Source: Clostridiales bacterium
GTDB lineage: Bacteria; Bacillota; Clostridia; TANB77; CAG-508
Assembly (NCBI GenBank): GCA_015056485.1
Contig: SVGD01000002.1
Coordinates: forward strand, 71,662 to 135,661
DNA: 64,000 nucleotides
Direction: 5' to 3'
The number at the start of each line of letters is the position of its first letter. Position 1 is the stretch's first letter. This document shows positions 39,300-41,737 of the stretch, one piece after another. The translations under genes and the position numbers were made by a program. The notes under the pieces were generated by a model that saw only the letters and a list, made by a program, of their open reading frames with translations, was not told the origin of the DNA and made no database searches.

Positions 39300-39328
39300 T
39301 TGCTTTTTTATGTAAAATTTGGTATAAT
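39300..39328 (+). promoter_or_regulatory. shared promoter module copy 2 (TTGCTT-17-TGgTATAAT) + CCTTCTGAAG...CGGAAGG leader hairpin
   Basis: tTTGCTTttttatgtaaaatttggTATAAT; leader hairpin 39341-39366. Confidence 0.6.
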
Positions 39329-39447
39329 TATATTTGTCAGAATCTTTATGTCCTTCTGAAGTTCATTTCGGAAGGACCATACTTCCGAATGATTATTCGA
39401 ATGGAATAAGGAAATTGGCAAATAAAAAATGAAAGGAGAGTTTCTTT

Positions 39448-39921
39448 ATGAAGAGACTCGCTGCTGCAATAGTCGCAATTGCCGTTCTTATTGCACTTGT
39501 CACATGCTTCGTCAAGCATATCACCACCACTCCTGAGACAACAACCACTGCAACATCATCCAGTACACTGTCAGATGATAATGTTGTAGGAGAAGTCATT
39601 TCATCTACTATTGATGAACTTAACTTTTCAGCAGAACAGCTATCCTACATGAACTTAGTCTACAACCCCTACACTAAAGAGGTCGGAGATGGTCTTATCG
39701 TATTTCCGAAAGAAACTATAGATGGAGATTTTTATACTCTCTATCTCTTCGGAATTGATGACGACAAAGCCATCGAGGTTGAGGGTTGGCATATGATAGG
39801 CAAAACCAAGCTCGATAACGGTTTAATTAAGCTTATCGTAACAGACCAGGGAGTCGACGGCGTTACCGTGCCTGAAGGTACAATTCTCCTGGATGGTCGT
39901 GAAATCATCCATATGTGCTAA
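39448..39921 (+). CDS. putative lipoprotein, GC-rich islet gene
   Basis: 157 aa, GGAGAG RBS, signal peptide with lipobox LVTC, Thr-rich linker; about 44% GC. Confidence 0.6.
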   Translation: MKRLAAAIVAIAVLIALVTCFVKHITTTPETTTTATSSSTLSDDNVVGEVISSTIDELNFSAEQLSYMNLVYNPYTKEVGDGLIVFPKETIDGDFYTLYLFGIDDDKAIEVEGWHMIGKTKLDNGLIKLIVTDQGVDGVTVPEGTILLDGREIIHMC

Positions 39922-39936
39922 TTTCCTTAGCACACA

Positions 39937-39970
39937 AAAGCTCCAGAGAAATCTGGAGCTTTTGTTTTTT
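39937..39970 (+). terminator. intrinsic terminator
   Basis: AAAGCTCCAGAgaaaTCTGGAGCTTTTGTTTTTT. Confidence 0.7.
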
Positions 39971-39979
39971 ATTATATAT

Positions 39980-40003
39980 CGGGCGATTAAAATCGCCCCT
40001 ACA
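39980..40003. repeat. GC-rich hairpin element (CCCCTACA family)
   Basis: CGGGCGATTAAAATCGCCCCTACA, same core as 48551. Confidence 0.7.
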
Positions 40004-40057
40004 ATCACCCTATATTTTAAATTTAGGTCTAGACAATAACATTTTTTCATATTTCCT

Positions 40058-40085
40058 TGCATTCTTATGTAAATTTTGTTATAAT
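40058..40085 (+). promoter_or_regulatory. shared promoter module copy 3 (TTGCAT-17-TATAAT)
   Basis: cTTGCATtcttatgtaaattttgtTATAAT followed by leader hairpin TCTTTCTTtaaccggAAGAAAGA. Confidence 0.55.
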
Positions 40086-40091
40086 ATTATA

Positions 40092-40296
40092 GTCAACTAC
40101 TTAGTTCTTTCTTTAACCGGAAGAAAGACATCCAACTAAAAATAAATTTTAATTGGATAAGTTTTGACATCATGCCACATTGCACAATATTCACAAATCT
40201 ATAATGTGAATATGTGGCGAAAGCGGGTTTATCTTTTTAGGTTAGAGCGAAACGAGTTTAAGAAAAATCTTAAACTCGTTTCGCTTTTATTTTTCT
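40092..40296 (+). ncRNA. candidate stand-alone structured small RNA (unit U1) ending in intrinsic terminator
   Basis: Own promoter (40058), conserved 5' box TTGGATAAgTTTTGAC, internal hairpins (ATTCACA...TGTGAAT), box TAGGTTAGAGCGAAAC, terminator AGCGAAACGAGTTTAAG..CTTAAACTCGTTTCGCTTTTATTTTT; no ORF. Confidence 0.4.
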
Positions 40297-40297
40297 C

Positions 40298-40326
40298 TTG
40301 CTTTTTTATGTAAAACATGCTATACT
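40298..40326 (+). promoter_or_regulatory. shared promoter module copy 4 (TTGCTT-17-TATACT)
   Basis: cTTGCTTttttatgtaaaacatgcTATACT then leader hairpin CCTTCTGAtaaaccTTCAGAAGG. Confidence 0.55.
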
Positions 40327-40332
40327 TTTAAA

Positions 40333-40502
40333 GTCAAAGTTTATATCCTTCTGATAAACCTTCAGAAGGACATCCTTCTGAGCTATTATTCAGTTGGATA
40401 AATTTTTGACCATCACGCGTGCTACAGTCCTCAGACTGGGTGATGAAATAGGTTAGGGCGAAACCGGCTTAAGATAAATCTTAAGCCGGTTTTGCATTTA
40501 AA
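40333..40502 (+). promoter_or_regulatory. structured 5' leader (unit U2, paralog of U1) with terminator-like hairpin upstream of 40599 gene: candidate attenuator/riboswitch
   Basis: Shares TTGGATAAaTTTTTGAC, TAGGTTAGGGCGAAAC boxes and terminator GAAACCGGCTTAAG..CTTAAGCCGGTTTTgcaTTT with U1. Confidence 0.4.
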
Positions 40503-40598
40503 AAAATATTATGTTATAATATTTTAGTTTCTCATTCATGTGGGGGGAATGAGAAATTATATCTTTAAGTCAAAGGACGTGTTTTTACGGAAAAATTT

Positions 40599-40994
40599 TT
40601 GTACTCATCAATAGTAGTTTTGTTAATTATAGTAGCAGTCTTATTAATTCGGCTATTCTATATAAAAAAACACCACTACATGCCTAACATAGGCGAAATC
40701 CGCAATAAAAAAGTACAGGTTGATGTGCAAGATTTCATTTACGAAAACCATAGAGCTCAAACACCCGTCGGAAAAGTTGAAGATTATTTGAATGTTTCTT
40801 TAGGTAACCCAACATTAAATATTTCAGTCCCTTATGAGGCAATATCTAAAAATGGACGTTTTCTAATTTATGTTTTTGGGAACCAACCTTATTGGGTTGA
40901 ACCATCGAAACACAAAAAAAAGTATTCAATTACTATTCATCGTAAAAAGCAAATAGAAAAGAAAGCTTCTTCAACACAGCAGAATCCTCAATAA
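40599..40994 (+). CDS. hypothetical small membrane-anchored protein (start uncertain: TTG 40599 or ATG 40677)
   Basis: 131 aa track ORF begins at TTG with weak RBS; N-terminal TM helix; contains in-frame CGG in TM region (LLIRLFY) if TTG start is used. Confidence 0.4.
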   Translation: MYSSIVVLLIIVAVLLIRLFYIKKHHYMPNIGEIRNKKVQVDVQDFIYENHRAQTPVGKVEDYLNVSLGNPTLNISVPYEAISKNGRFLIYVFGNQPYWVEPSKHKKKYSITIHRKKQIEKKASSTQQNPQ

Positions 40995-41012
40995 TTTCTC
41001 CCCCCCACGTTT

Positions 41013-41050
41013 TGTGCCCATTACGCAAGTAATTGGGCACATTTCTTTTT
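41013..41050 (+). terminator. intrinsic terminator
   Basis: TGTGCCCATTAcgcaagTAATTGGGCACAtttcttttt. Confidence 0.6.
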
Positions 41051-41064
41051 CACTTTACATAAAT

Positions 41065-41093
41065 TTGACTTTTTTAGAAAAATATTGTATAAT
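41065..41093 (+). promoter_or_regulatory. sigma-A promoter TTGACT-17-TGtTATAAT
   Basis: TTGACTtttttagaaaaatattgTATAAT upstream of 41203 gene. Confidence 0.55.
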
Positions 41094-41202
41094 TGTTATG
41101 TAAAACCTTTATCAAGGACATCGCAAAATTCCCTAGTCCGCCTCGTGGGGAGGAAAAAAAAAGGCTTTTACAACTAAATTTTTTTAAGGAGGATTCACAG
41201 TT

Positions 41203-41643
41203 ATGAATCTTAATGTAATTTACATCGGCATTCCCCTTATACTCATTGCTATCGCTGCAATCGTTGCAGCAATCACATTTACCGTAAAGTCAGTCAAAGG
41301 CCGCAGCCGCCGCTCATCCAACCCTAAAAAAAGCAAAAAAAAGCAGAGCTTCTGTAAGCTTTTCAAAGCTTTCCTTGCTTACTATAAGGGGAAAGACGTA
41401 AAGGTAATAAAACCTGTATATATTCGTCCCCTGGAAAGTTCGTTAAAACCCACAGATAAGTTGCCTAAAAATACTTATCTGTTTAAAGGATTCATAACTG
41501 ATGACGCGGGCGAAATCTTGCTCGCATTATCCATCAGCGGTGAAACAGAAAATTACCCTGTCAGACTGAGCAAAAATCTCGAATTCATTTCAAAGTCAAA
41601 GGATGAATACGATGATGATGAAGATGAAGACGATGACGATTAA
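41203..41643 (+). CDS. hypothetical N-terminally anchored protein with poly-acidic C-terminus, GC-rich islet gene
   Basis: 146 aa, AAGGAGG RBS, TM helix, basic stretch RSRRSSNPKKSKKKQ, ends DEYDDDEDEDDDD; about 42% GC. Confidence 0.55.
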   Translation: MNLNVIYIGIPLILIAIAAIVAAITFTVKSVKGRSRRSSNPKKSKKKQSFCKLFKAFLAYYKGKDVKVIKPVYIRPLESSLKPTDKLPKNTYLFKGFITDDAGEILLALSISGETENYPVRLSKNLEFISKSKDEYDDDEDEDDDD

Positions 41644-41687
41644 ACAATTACCCTCCCCACACAATTCCTACAGTTAATGTAAGGACA

Positions 41688-41737
41688 AAAGAGCCAATGA
41701 CTTCACAGTCAGTGGCTCCTTTTGTTTTTATTTTTTC
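41688..41737. terminator. bidirectional terminator overlapping plsC 3' end
   Basis: GAGCCAATGACttcacaGTCAGTGGCTC + T-runs both sides. Confidence 0.55.

What the first reader, a model, noticed from the sequence alone, without database searches (positions are those of the whole stretch)
39300..41737. Three-gene GC-rich islet between typA and plsC driven by repeated copies of one promoter-leader module
39448..39921 (lipoprotein, 44% GC), 40599..40994 and 41203..41643 (membrane anchor, RSRRSSNPKKSKKKQ basic patch and DDDEDEDDDD tail) are all + strand in a minus-strand neighbourhood. Each has its own terminator. Four near-identical promoter modules occur in the window (7972, 39300, 40058, 40298): cTTGC(T/A)Tt(t/c)ttatgtaaa(a/t)…TATAAT. 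Three are followed by a CCTTCTGA…TCAGAAGG-type leader hairpin. Reuse of one promoter+leader module in front of different foreign-looking genes resembles a cassette-capture platform or a duplicated promoter-bearing repeat.
Basis: seen in the sequence. Interest (0 to 1): 0.6.

Follow-up and report, generated by a model that had tools for sequence, protein, structure and literature searches.

The report
Strain-variable gene islet with two new RNAs
Between two housekeeping genes of an uncultured gut or rumen Clostridia bacterium lies a strain-variable cluster of self-contained mini-genes for small membrane proteins, plus two previously undescribed structured RNA genes; it is of moderate interest because each mini-gene's message appears built to pair its front end with its tail.

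Summary
The sequence features are real, but the reading needs correction. The four promoter copies exist (4 observed against 0.6 expected). Only the copy at 39300 drives a protein gene (ORF1). The copies at 40057 and 40298 each drive a ~170-200 nt non-coding RNA ending in a strong terminator. These two RNAs are tandem paralogues related to the ORF1 leader, match no Rfam family, and are supported by compensatory base changes across strains. ORF2 and ORF3 have their own, different promoters.

The promoter core matches at least 120 loci, nearly all in gut Clostridia MAGs, upstream of unrelated genes. It is therefore not an islet-specific mobile module.

Conspecific strains carry the islet with different content:
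- ORF1 is present or absent.
- There are one or two RNA genes.
- An extra 82-aa cassette occurs in one strain.
- Unrelated ORFs occupy the ORF3 slot.
- The centre of ORF3 is ~50% identical where typA is 97% identical.

Codon composition is foreign (GC3 0.27-0.41 against 0.06-0.24 in the other genes). No integrase and no phage or plasmid relatives were found.

One new feature emerged. In four of the six high-GC3 genes (four of the five on the + strand), the 5'UTR is complementary to the sequence just after the stop codon, with allele-specific sequences.

Best reading: a horizontal-transfer hotspot of autonomous, moron-like expression units that turn over by homologous recombination. The function of the proteins is unknown.

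The parts
39300..39328 (+). Promoter of the ORF1 unit: -35 TTGCTT (39300-39305), a 17-nt spacer containing TTATGTAAA, and an extended -10 TGgTATAAT (39320-39328)
   Evidence: Conserved in L140, L141 and L143.
39335..39447 (+). ORF1 5'UTR. A closing helix (UGUCA/UGGCA) encloses hairpins built from CCUUC/GAAGG-type arms. It is related to the 5' domain of the two RNA genes. The 5' box lies at 39401-39421.
   Evidence: Fold energy -32.7 kcal/mol, z = -3.6. Weak covariance-model hit of 21.8 bits, E = 0.002. About 92% conserved in L143, where the protein is only 49% identical.
39448..39921 (+). ORF1, 157 aa. Probable lipoprotein or signal-anchored protein with a Thr-rich linker and an extracytoplasmic beta-sandwich domain. 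GC3 is 0.41.
39916..39965 (+). ORF1 3' end. The 3' box (39916-39935) overlaps the stop codon and is complementary to the 5' box. The terminator is at 39934-39965.
   Evidence: 5'/3' duplex of -20.1 kcal/mol, with 0 of 1000 shuffles as good. Terminator.
39982..40006 (+). REP-like GC-rich hairpin GGGCGATTAAAATCGCCCCTACAAT, a member of a genome-wide repeat family
   Evidence: GCCCCTAC occurs 10 times in the window against 0.12 expected. The stem shows compensatory variation in L009 and L133.
40057..40085 (+). Promoter of RNA gene 1 (TTGCAT, 17-nt spacer, TGtTATAAT)
40092..40291 (+). Non-coding RNA 1, ~200 nt. It has a 5' three-way-junction domain (P1 GUCAA/UUGAC plus two hairpins), a long variable hairpin, the conserved linker AGGUUAGR, and a terminator at 40244-40287.
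   Evidence: Fold energy -64.3 kcal/mol, z = -9.0. Covariance-model score 168 bits. Pair counts. No ORF is conserved across strains.
40298..40326 (+). Promoter of RNA gene 2 (TTGCTT, 17-nt spacer, TGcTATACT)
40333..40502 (+). Non-coding RNA 2, ~170 nt, a tandem paralogue of RNA 1. Its terminator (40458-40495) has a poor U-tract, so read-through into ORF2 is possible.
   Evidence: Fold energy -69.2 kcal/mol, z = -9.3. Covariance-model score 142 bits. Pair counts.
40491..40520 (+). ORF2's own promoter (TTTGCA, 18-nt spacer, TATAAT with TG), overlapping the 3' arm of the RNA 2 terminator
   Evidence: Conserved in L009, L011 and L135.
40526..40598 (+). ORF2 5'UTR. A hairpin presents the G-box in its loop and 3' arm (40537-40561).
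40599..40994 (+). ORF2, 131 aa if it starts at TTG 40599 (N-terminal membrane helix followed by KKHH and a ~100-aa domain). The start is uncertain; gene callers use ATG 40680.
   Evidence: The divergent L011 allele has an ATG with a good ribosome-binding site and a membrane helix.
40990..41041 (+). ORF2 3' end. The C-box AAUAAUUUCUCCCCCCCACGUU (40990-41011) overlaps the stop codon. The terminator is at 41013-41041.
   Evidence: 5'/3' duplex of -30.0 kcal/mol, with 0 of 1000 shuffles as good. Terminator.
41054..41104 (+). ORF3 promoter (TTGACT, 17-nt spacer, TATAAT at 41065-41093), flanked by two inverted copies of TTATGTAAA (41054-41062 on the minus strand, 41096-41104 on the plus strand)
41100..41202 (+). 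ORF3 5'UTR with the G-box CGUGGGGAGGA (41144-41154). It is 94-100% identical between strains whose ORF3 centre is ~50% identical.
41203..41643 (+). ORF3, 146 aa. It has an N-terminal membrane helix, a basic patch (so the C-terminus is predicted cytoplasmic), an SH3-like barrel and a poly-acidic tail. The centre (about 41300-41590) is hypervariable and bounded by AGTCAAAGG repeats.
41651..41731 (+). ORF3 3' end. The C-box CCCUCCCCACA is at 41651-41661 and the terminator at about 41679-41731.
   Evidence: 5'/3' duplex of -20.9 kcal/mol, p about 0.005. Terminator.
7972..8368 (+). Fourth copy of the promoter (7972-8000), followed by a 110-aa multi-pass membrane protein gene (8036-8368, GC3 0.32). 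It has no islet-type leader and no 5'/3' boxes.
10463..11517 (+). Another cassette of the same design. Its promoter is a near-copy of the ORF3 promoter (about 10463-10510). The ORFan gene at 10638-11495 has GC3 0.41. The 5' box (10582-10595) is complementary to the 3' box (11497-11510).

Best explanation
The interval between typA and plsC is a horizontal-transfer hotspot in one uncultured gut or rumen Clostridia species. It holds a row of autonomous, single-gene expression units.

Each protein unit has five parts:
- a strong sigma-A-type promoter with an extended -10;
- a structured 5'UTR whose first bases are already paired;
- an ORFan small envelope protein of foreign codon composition;
- a short box at or just after the stop codon that is complementary to a box in its own 5'UTR;
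- an intrinsic terminator.

Two further units lack an ORF. They encode tandemly duplicated ~170-200 nt structured RNAs whose 5' domain is related to the ORF1 leader.

Shown:
- the anatomy of the units;
- the RNA fold with compensatory changes;
- strain-to-strain gain, loss and replacement of units;
- foreign codon composition;
- 5'/3' complementarity beyond chance and specific to these cassettes.

Inferred:
- Units turn over by homologous recombination, either in the flanking core genes and shared non-coding frames or by unequal crossing-over between repeated promoters. No dedicated recombinase is involved.
- The 5'UTR pairs with the 3' box in the mRNA. This ties mRNA stability or translation to ribosome passage, because a ribosome terminating at the stop codon would open the duplex.
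- The two RNAs act as stable small RNAs that bind the same unknown factor as the ORF1 leader. RNA 2 may also serve as a long leader for ORF2.
- The proteins serve strain-specific envelope functions under diversifying selection.
For: Anatomy.

RNA genes:
- The window holds exactly two full copies (168 and 142 bits) and one weak hit on the ORF1 leader.
- Across 9 distinct sequences from six sources (the window and five related loci), 93% of cells are paired. 23 of 60 pairs show changes on both sides, against 11.0 ± 2.2 in shuffles and 2-5 in slid controls.
- No Rfam family matches.

Variation between strains:
- L140 belongs to the same species (typA mostly 94-100% identical per 50-nt window). 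Within the islet, identity is 66-94% across RNA 1, 38-92% across RNA 2, ~80% in ORF2 and 44-56% in the ORF3 centre. The ORF3 promoter and leader stay at 94-100%.
- L010 and L011 lack ORF1 and have a single RNA gene.
- L143 carries an extra 82-aa cassette.
- L132 and L134 carry unrelated ORFs in the ORF3 slot.

Foreign composition: GC3 is 0.27-0.41, against 0.06-0.24 in the other genes.

5'/3' pairing:
- 9 of 10 cassette alleles beat shuffles, with p from <0.001 to 0.027.
- Among 62 genes in the window, the four cassettes rank 2-5 by z-score.
- The boxes differ between alleles yet still pair. The L011 duplex is 26 nt and -30.1 kcal/mol, with a different sequence from the window allele.

No recombinase gene lies in the ~6 kb on either side. 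Nothing similar occurs in phage, plasmid or viral collections. Precedents exist for 5'/3' UTR pairing (PMC3868564, PMC5737220), for hotspots that lack mobile-element genes (PMC5635113) and for morons (PMC3594210).
Against: - No transcript data exist. Promoters, transcription starts, termination and the 5'/3' duplex are all predictions.
- All comparative sequences come from one species-level clade. The covariation sample is small (9 distinct sequences in two paralogue groups), and the alignment was fitted to the model.
- The 5'/3' complementarity is equally an inverted DNA repeat, so a DNA-level role is not excluded.
- The gene at 8036 shares the promoter but has no boxes.
- No convincing trans target was found for the RNAs' single-stranded segments.
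Confidence: 0.5

Rival explanations
1. An integron-like or other site-specific cassette-capture platform. A recombinase would insert promoter-bearing cassettes at a defined site.
For: - Cassette content differs between strains, and unrelated ORFs occupy the same slot.
- Short motifs recur at boundaries: AGTCAAAG occurs 4 times in the window, all inside the islet.
- G-box and C-box inverted repeats flank slots 2 and 3.
Against: - No integrase or recombinase gene lies in the ~6 kb on either side in any strain.
- Every cassette has its own promoter.
- Left breakpoints differ between strain pairs: 41157, 41172 and about 41300.
- The frames around unrelated ORFs are diverged homologues (78-86% identical), not identical landing pads.
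- I saw no attC-like self-folding site shared by cassette ends.
Confidence: 0.07
2. The two non-coding units are cis-acting leaders of ORF2, such as tandem riboswitch-like or protein-dependent attenuators, rather than independent RNA genes.
For: - Both lie upstream of ORF2 on the same strand.
- Each pairs a structured 5' domain with a terminator.
- The RNA 2 terminator has a weak U-tract (GCAUUUAAAAAA), so read-through is plausible.
- The same 5' domain is a true 5'UTR in front of ORF1.
- Segments 1-4 of RNA 2 (CCUUCUGA / UCAGAAGG / CCUUCUGA / UCAGUUGG) can form alternative hairpins.
Against: - Each unit has its own canonical promoter, conserved across strains.
- ORF2 has a further promoter of its own downstream of both terminators.
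- Strains with one RNA gene or two carry the same kind of ORF2.
- No Rfam family matches.
- RNA 1 lacks the alternative pairing seen in RNA 2.
Confidence: 0.15
3. The RNA units are decayed cassettes: a promoter, leader and terminator left behind after ORF loss, with no function of their own.
For: - Their 5' part is homologous to the ORF1 leader.
- L010 and L011 show promoter remnants, and deletions happen in this locus.
- The RNAs diverge faster than the flanking genes: identity to L140 is 66-94% across RNA 1 and 38-92% across RNA 2.
- The family was found nowhere else.
Against: - Divergence is compensatory. 23 of 60 pairs changed on both sides and 93% of cells remain paired.
- Promoters and terminators are intact in every strain that carries the unit.
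- The long middle hairpin and the AGGUUAGR linker have no counterpart in the ORF cassettes.
Confidence: 0.13
4. The boxes flanking each ORF act at the DNA level, as terminal inverted repeats of small mobile or invertible segments, rather than in the mRNA.
For: - Inverted repeats of 10-26 bp flank segments of 0.45-0.95 kb, a size similar to invertible segments.
- The divergent part of ORF2 alleles is bounded by GTGGGGG and CCCCCAC.
Against: - All independent assemblies show the same orientation.
- No invertase or transposase gene is nearby.
- Each cassette has a different repeat sequence, unlike copies of one mobile family.
- The 3' repeat consistently lies 0-10 nt from the stop codon and upstream of the terminator, so it is inside the transcript. 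An RNA role predicts that position; a DNA role does not.
Confidence: 0.07
5. The islet is the remnant of a degraded prophage or integrative element whose morons survived.
For: The units have the moron design: own promoter, own terminator and atypical composition. Small membrane proteins are common moron cargo (my own knowledge).
Against: - No phage or mobile-element genes, att sites or tRNA genes are nearby.
- No protein relatives occur in viral contigs.
- No DNA match occurs in the phage or plasmid collections.
- PHROGs and PADLOC return nothing.
Confidence: 0.08

Closest known systems
Chromosomal hotspots of horizontal gene transfer flanked by core genes (Oliveira et al. 2017, PMC5635113)
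   Same: Accessory genes of atypical composition are concentrated between two conserved core genes. Gene content turns over rapidly between strains of one species, and no mobile-element genes are present.
   Different: This hotspot is very small (2.4 kb). It consists only of single-gene units with shared non-coding frames, and it includes two RNA genes.
Phage morons (PMC3594210)
   Same: These are independent transcription units with their own promoter and terminator. They are inserted between genes that are adjacent elsewhere, and their nucleotide composition differs from the surroundings.
   Different: The islet is not in a phage or prophage. It has no relatives in viral, phage or plasmid collections.
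Intramolecular 5'UTR-3'UTR pairing: S. aureus icaR (PMC3868564) and B. subtilis hbs (PMC5737220)
   Same: [quoted passage not shown] The duplexes here are 10-26 bp, compared with 14 bp in hbs. The C-boxes resemble the icaR UCCCC motif.
   Different: - The 5' partner here is not the true Shine-Dalgarno sequence. It is an upstream box, often Shine-Dalgarno-like, 25-60 nt before the start codon.
- The 3' box touches the stop codon instead of sitting in a long 3'UTR.
- The feature recurs in at least four unrelated cassettes of one genome.
- Nothing has been shown experimentally.
Integron gene cassettes
   Same: An array of small, mostly ORFan, strain-variable cassettes sits at one chromosomal site.
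   Different: There is no integrase, attI or attC. Every cassette has its own promoter and terminator, and breakpoints are not fixed.
Small RNAs derived from cis-regulatory leaders, such as the riboswitch-derived SreA/SreB of Listeria (recalled from my own knowledge, not tested)
   Same: A structured 5' domain followed by a terminator yields a short stable RNA that shares its fold with a true mRNA leader.
   Different: No ligand or target is known. The units here have their own promoters and no downstream gene that lacks a promoter of its own.

Membership tests
Integron | An adjacent tyrosine-recombinase gene (intI) | tested here: not met
   The genes in the ~6 kb on either side are glgP, a Fumble-type kinase, an O-methyltransferase, typA, plsC, cmk, an Asp23-like gene, a glycosyltransferase and PNPase. 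None is a recombinase.
Integron | Mostly promoterless cassettes, each ending in an attC site with a shared core | tested here: not met
   Each unit has its own -35/-10 promoter and its own terminator. Reading the sequences, I saw no shared core at cassette ends. Breakpoints differ between strain pairs.
Phage moron | An autonomous unit (promoter, ORF, terminator) of atypical composition | tested here: met
Phage moron | Located inside a phage or prophage genome | tested here: not met
   The flanks are housekeeping genes. There are no hits in viral, phage or plasmid collections or in PHROGs.
HGT hotspot between core genes | Conserved flanking core genes with variable gene content between conspecific strains | tested here: met
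   typA is about 97% identical between the window and L140. Both flanks are conserved where the contigs reach them. Islet content differs in L010/L011, L132, L134 and L143, and probably in L135.
5'UTR-3'UTR self-pairing mRNA (icaR/hbs type) | Complementarity between the 5'UTR and 3'UTR of the same transcript beyond chance | tested here: met
   9 of 10 cassette alleles have p of 0.027 or less. The cassettes rank 2-5 among the window's 62 genes.
5'UTR-3'UTR self-pairing mRNA (icaR/hbs type) | The pairing masks the Shine-Dalgarno sequence (icaR) or a nuclease site (hbs) and changes expression | not testable with these tools
   The predicted duplexes lie upstream of the true Shine-Dalgarno sequence. 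Their effect on RNases or translation needs experiments.
Known RNA families (Rfam 15) | A match at or above a family's gathering score | tested here: not met
   There are 0 matches in the window at gathering score. With the E-value limit relaxed to 10, all matches fell below the families' gathering scores and fell largely on terminator hairpins.
Riboswitch or cis attenuator | An aptamer and expression platform in the 5'UTR of the regulated gene, transcribed from the same promoter | tested here: inconclusive
   The ORF1 leader fits the position. The two RNA units are each followed by another promoter. A ligand-binding core cannot be judged from one species.
Type III toxin-antitoxin (ToxIN-like) | An array of short (~35 nt) RNA repeats, a terminator and then a toxin gene, all under one promoter | tested here: not met
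   The repeat units are 170-200 nt, and each has its own promoter and terminator. ORF2 matches no PADLOC or Pfam family.
Sigma-70/sigma-A promoter with extended -10 | TTGnnn, a 17-nt spacer, TATAAT, and TG one base upstream of the -10 | tested here: met
   Read directly from the sequence at 39300, 40057 and 40298. The copy at 7972 lacks the TG. Transcription starts were not tested.

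The most novel reading that the evidence does not exclude
The shared non-coding frames may form a recombinase-free expression-slot system: the promoter, a leader with a G-rich box, a C-rich box at the stop codon, and the terminator. Any incoming ORF carried between such frames could be swapped in by homologous recombination. It would then immediately acquire a built-in 5'/3' closed-loop control of its mRNA. The two structured RNAs would act as trans regulators or decoys for the factor that reads the common leader domain. 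If so, this would be a previously undescribed way for a bacterium to domesticate and regulate foreign genes.
Probability: 0.12. Interest if true: 0.75.

Novelty: new variant of a known kind. Interest (0 to 1): 0.45.

Why it matters
If the predictions hold, this small locus contributes three things.
- A new structured small-RNA family with a paralogous mRNA leader.
- A natural set of at least four unrelated genes that all pair their 5'UTR with the sequence at their stop codon. The two examples I found in the literature are single genes (icaR and hbs). A recurring, allele-covarying version would suggest a more general design for controlling newly acquired genes.
- A clear example of within-species hypervariation. 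The ORF3 centre is ~50% identical against a 97% background, and it sits inside conserved regulatory frames in a gut or rumen anaerobe.

The limits are real. The organism is uncultured, the proteins are ORFans, and every functional claim is a prediction.

Tried and rejected
Searches that found nothing:
- Rfam at gathering score returned nothing, and the relaxed search (E-value limit 10) gave only matches below gathering score.
- Pfam, NCBIfam, PADLOC and PHROGs on all cassette proteins gave no match above a curated cut-off, and no significant hit in PADLOC or PHROGs.
- An exhaustive HMMER search for ORF3 found only alleles, plus a 1865-aa repetitive protein (P0019). I judged that match spurious: nine short stretches of weak similarity to a single beta-hairpin-like motif. 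I did not run P0019 against Pfam.
- Two metagenome-contig scans, one with the ORF3-leader 20-mer and one with the RNA 3' pattern, both returned 0. The same 20-mer occurs in contigs returned by the look-up of encoding contigs, so that collection evidently lacks this species. The zero says little.
- Viral, phage and plasmid searches returned nothing.
- The covariance model found no further RNA copies in 727 kb of other gut Clostridia loci.

Readings tested and set aside:
- The promoter module as an islet-specific mobile element. Rejected because at least 120 loci share it, nearly all in gut Clostridia MAGs.
- Homology among the cassette proteins. None was detectable between ORF3 and ORF2, or between ORF3 and the L132 slot-3 ORF.
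- Antisense targeting by the RNAs' single-stranded segments. Only the trivial pairing between homologous hairpins stood out.
- Coding potential of the RNA units. The only ORF (40164-40313) runs through the terminator and is broken by indels in other strains.
- Antisense covariance-model hits (63 and 41 bits). These arise from hairpin symmetry and were not treated as genes.

Not available: the afdb50 fold library.

Full report
OBSERVATION

The window is AT-rich (GC 0.28) and almost all its genes lie on the minus strand.
- The 18-mer TTGCWTTYTTATGTAAAW occurs at 7972, 39300, 40057 and 40298, all on the + strand. That is 4 matches against 0.60 expected, and no shuffle reached 4.
- Each copy is followed after 5 nt by TATAAT, or TATACT at 40321. 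Three copies have TG one base upstream of the -10.
- The three + strand ORFs, their terminators, the basic patch and the acidic tail are all present.
- The neighbours are typA/BipA and a PlsC-type acyltransferase.
- ORF1 and ORF3 are GC-enriched (0.43 and 0.39); ORF2 is barely so (0.32).
- Third-codon-position GC gives the sharper signal: 0.41, 0.27 and 0.41, against 0.06-0.24 in the other genes.

WHAT THE MODULES ACTUALLY DRIVE

Only the 39300 copy precedes a protein gene. The 40057 and 40298 copies each start a non-coding unit at a GUCAA predicted about 7 nt after the -10. These units run 40092-40291 and 40333-40502, and each ends in a 17-20 bp terminator.

Both units fold far better than shuffles: -64.3 and -69.2 kcal/mol, with z of about -9. 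They share one architecture:
- a closing helix P1 (GUCAA/UUGAC) around two hairpins;
- a long hairpin of variable sequence;
- a conserved linker, AGGUUAGR;
- the terminator.

They are tandem paralogues with a 241-nt period. The ORF1 5'UTR contains a related P1-plus-hairpins domain. ORF2 and ORF3 have their own promoters at 40491-40520 and 41065-41093. Neither RNA matches an Rfam family.

EVIDENCE THAT THE RNAs ARE REAL STRUCTURED RNAs

I built a covariance model from nine copies taken from the window and from related contigs.
- The model finds exactly two full copies in the window, plus a weak hit on the ORF1 leader.
- It finds no convincing copy in 727 kb from other gut Clostridia (best E = 0.02, a terminator-only hit).
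- Pattern scans of the metagenome and viral collections found none. The metagenome collection seems to lack this species.
- On the model-guided alignment of 9 distinct sequences, 93% of cells are paired. 23 of 60 pairs changed on both sides, against 11.0 ± 2.2 in shuffles and 2-5 when partners are slid.

Two caveats apply. All sequences come from one species-level clade, and the alignment was fitted to the model.

THE PROMOTER IS NOT PRIVATE

Nearly all were uncultured gut Clostridia or Clostridium sp. MAGs. The promoter sat 30-150 nt upstream of a ribosome-binding site and the start codon of unrelated genes. None of the loci scanned with the covariance model or the leader pattern carries the islet's leader domain. 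So the -35, TTATGTAAA spacer and -10 form a promoter type typical of this lineage.

Within the window, TTATGTAAA is enriched (11 against 4.1 expected), and 5 copies lie in the islet. The ORF3 promoter has two inverted copies flanking its core. A shared regulator site is therefore possible, but I did not test it.

A near-copy of the ORF3 promoter precedes another + strand, high-GC3 ORFan gene at 10638-11495.

COMPARATIVE PICTURE

The three proteins are near-orphans among 5.8 billion clusters:
- ORF3 has 3 clusters;
- ORF2 has 5 clusters;
- ORF1 has 8 clusters, ranging from 100% down to 48% identity and mosaic in pattern.

Source labels point to gut and rumen samples, including a pig-gut metagenome and MAGs named Clostridiales or Clostridia bacterium.

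L140 (GCA_017437145.1) belongs to the same species, with typA about 97% identical. Islet identity is 66-94% across RNA 1, 38-92% across RNA 2, ~80% in ORF2 and 44-56% in the ORF3 centre. The ORF3 promoter and leader stay at 94-100%.

Other strains differ in content:
- L010 and L011 lack ORF1, have one RNA gene and carry a divergent ORF2.
- L143 has an extra 82-aa two-helix membrane protein cassette ahead of a 49%-identical ORF1. That ORF1's leader is about 92% conserved.
- L132 and L134 have unrelated ORFs in the ORF3 slot. Around them, the promoter, the leader up to the G-box, the C-box and the terminator are homologous.
- Left breakpoints differ: 41157, 41172 and about 41300.

In a MAG whose typA is 80% identical, the 565 bp next to typA show no similarity to the islet. 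No recombinase gene lies in the ~6 kb on either side in any strain.

A NEW FEATURE: 5'/3' BOXES

Each protein cassette carries a box in its 5'UTR that is complementary to a box 0-10 nt after, or overlapping, its stop codon and upstream of the terminator.

| Cassette | 5' box | 3' box | Duplex (kcal/mol) |
|---|---|---|---|
| ORF1 | 39401-39421 | 39916-39935 | -20.1 |
| ORF2 | 40537-40561 | 40990-41011 | -30.0 |
| ORF3 | 41144-41154 | 41651-41661 | -20.9 |
| gene 10638 | 10582-10595 | 11497-11510 | -18.3 |

- Nine of ten cassette alleles beat 1000 shuffles, with p from <0.001 to 0.027. The gene at 8036 does not.
- Under one uniform protocol applied to 62 window genes, these four cassettes rank 2-5, with z from -3.1 to -4.3. 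Rank 1 is cmk, whose flanking intergenic regions carry oppositely oriented copies of the REP-like repeat.
- The boxes differ between alleles yet still pair. The L011 ORF2 duplex is 26 nt with a different inner sequence. That argues for selection on pairing.
- In ORF1 the 5' box overlaps the 3' arm of the leader's closing helix, so the long-range duplex and the leader domain exclude each other.
- A ribosome terminating at the stop codon would cover the 3' box. That step is my inference.

The closest described cases are icaR (PMC3868564) and hbs (PMC5737220).

PROTEINS

- ORF2 has a membrane helix only if translation starts upstream of the ATG the gene callers chose. A divergent allele with a clear ribosome-binding site includes the helix.
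- No function can be assigned.

MECHANISM AND RIVALS

I read the locus as a small horizontal-transfer hotspot (PMC5635113) filled with moron-like autonomous units (PMC3594210).
- Shown: the anatomy, the variation between strains, the foreign composition, the RNA covariation, and the 5'/3' complementarity.
- Inferred: turnover by homologous recombination, whether through the flanking core genes, through the shared non-coding frames, or by unequal crossing-over between promoter repeats. For example, the window's ORF1 arrangement equals L143 minus the cassette lying between two -10 regions.
- Inferred: an RNA-level role for the boxes in coupling mRNA stability to translation.
- Inferred: the 5'-terminal helices protect the transcripts from 5'-end-dependent decay. 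This rests on my knowledge of Firmicutes mRNA decay and was not tested here.
- Inferred: the two RNAs act as stable small RNAs sharing a binding partner with the ORF1 leader.

The rivals are listed with their tests in the rival-explanations section. They are an integron-like platform, cis-attenuators for ORF2, decayed cassettes, DNA-level inverted repeats, and a prophage remnant. None is excluded by experiment. Each is disfavoured by at least one observation.

VERDICT

Its headline idea, one promoter-leader module capturing genes, is only partly right. Each component belongs to a known kind:
- a transfer hotspot;
- moron-like units;
- a small RNA derived from a leader;
- 5'/3' UTR pairing.

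The combination is new, and so is the recurrence of allele-covarying 5'/3' boxes in several foreign cassettes. I score interest at 0.45.

Noticed in passing
window 41712-42330 (minus strand): The plsC-like acyltransferase is split by a frameshift right after the FPEGT(R) motif. The 131-aa ORF ends at 41935, and the normal C-terminal part (HENGLEKKIKPKNGAVTIACKANVPIVPVGIQG...) continues in another frame down to about 41712. The junction sequence GGTACACGAAAACGGC is also present in L010, and gene callers report the same 131-aa product in all strains.
   Followed up: partly
window 35802, 36658, 39995, 42359, 43150, 44171, 48354, 51458, 51477, 52186: A REP-like GC-rich hairpin family ending in GCCCCTAC(A) occurs 10 times against 0.12 expected. 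Stem sequences vary in a compensatory way between strains. Oppositely oriented copies (42359 minus, 43150 plus) lie in the intergenic regions flanking cmk (42414-43082). That probably explains its -45 kcal/mol upstream/downstream complementarity.
   Followed up: partly
window 10463-11517: A second cassette of the same design lies outside the islet. It has a promoter nearly identical to ORF3's, a 285-aa ORFan protein (GC3 0.41, no Pfam match), and a 14-nt 5'UTR box complementary to the sequence 2 nt after its stop codon. It is present in both distinct conspecific contexts returned.
   Followed up: partly
window 7930-8950: A convergent pair of high-GC3 ORFan genes: 8036-8368 on the + strand (multi-pass membrane protein, behind the fourth promoter copy) and 8498-8950 on the minus strand (150 aa). 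They look like another small foreign islet next to the cotJ operon.
   Followed up: no
loci L012-L131 (genome-contig hits): The promoter TTGnnTTTTTATGTAAAw-N5-TATAAT is widespread in uncultured gut Clostridia MAGs. Several of those leaders (L013, L021, L038, L047, L054, L100, L130) carry a hairpin whose arms look like a Shine-Dalgarno sequence and its complement, 10-30 nt upstream of the real ribosome-binding site. This resembles the islet's CCUUCUGA/UCAGAAGG hairpin.
   Followed up: no
window 40332, 40568, 41292, 41594: AGTCAAAG occurs four times in the window, all on the + strand inside the islet. The sites are the 5' end of RNA 2, the ORF2 leader, and the two borders of the hypervariable centre of ORF3. 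The whole-window count is not above chance (4 against 2.2 expected). The clustering and positions are unexplained.
   Followed up: partly
window 55700-55731: Another TATAAT is followed 8 nt later by TTATGTAAA, upstream of the + strand gene at 55747-56916. The arrangement matches the ORF3 promoter and hints at a shared operator.
   Followed up: no
window 1-64000: GC skew is negative on the + strand throughout the surveyed part (36000-45000), and nearly all native genes across the window are on the minus strand. The foreign-looking cassettes are + strand except 8498-8950. Most are therefore probably oriented head-on to replication.
   Followed up: no
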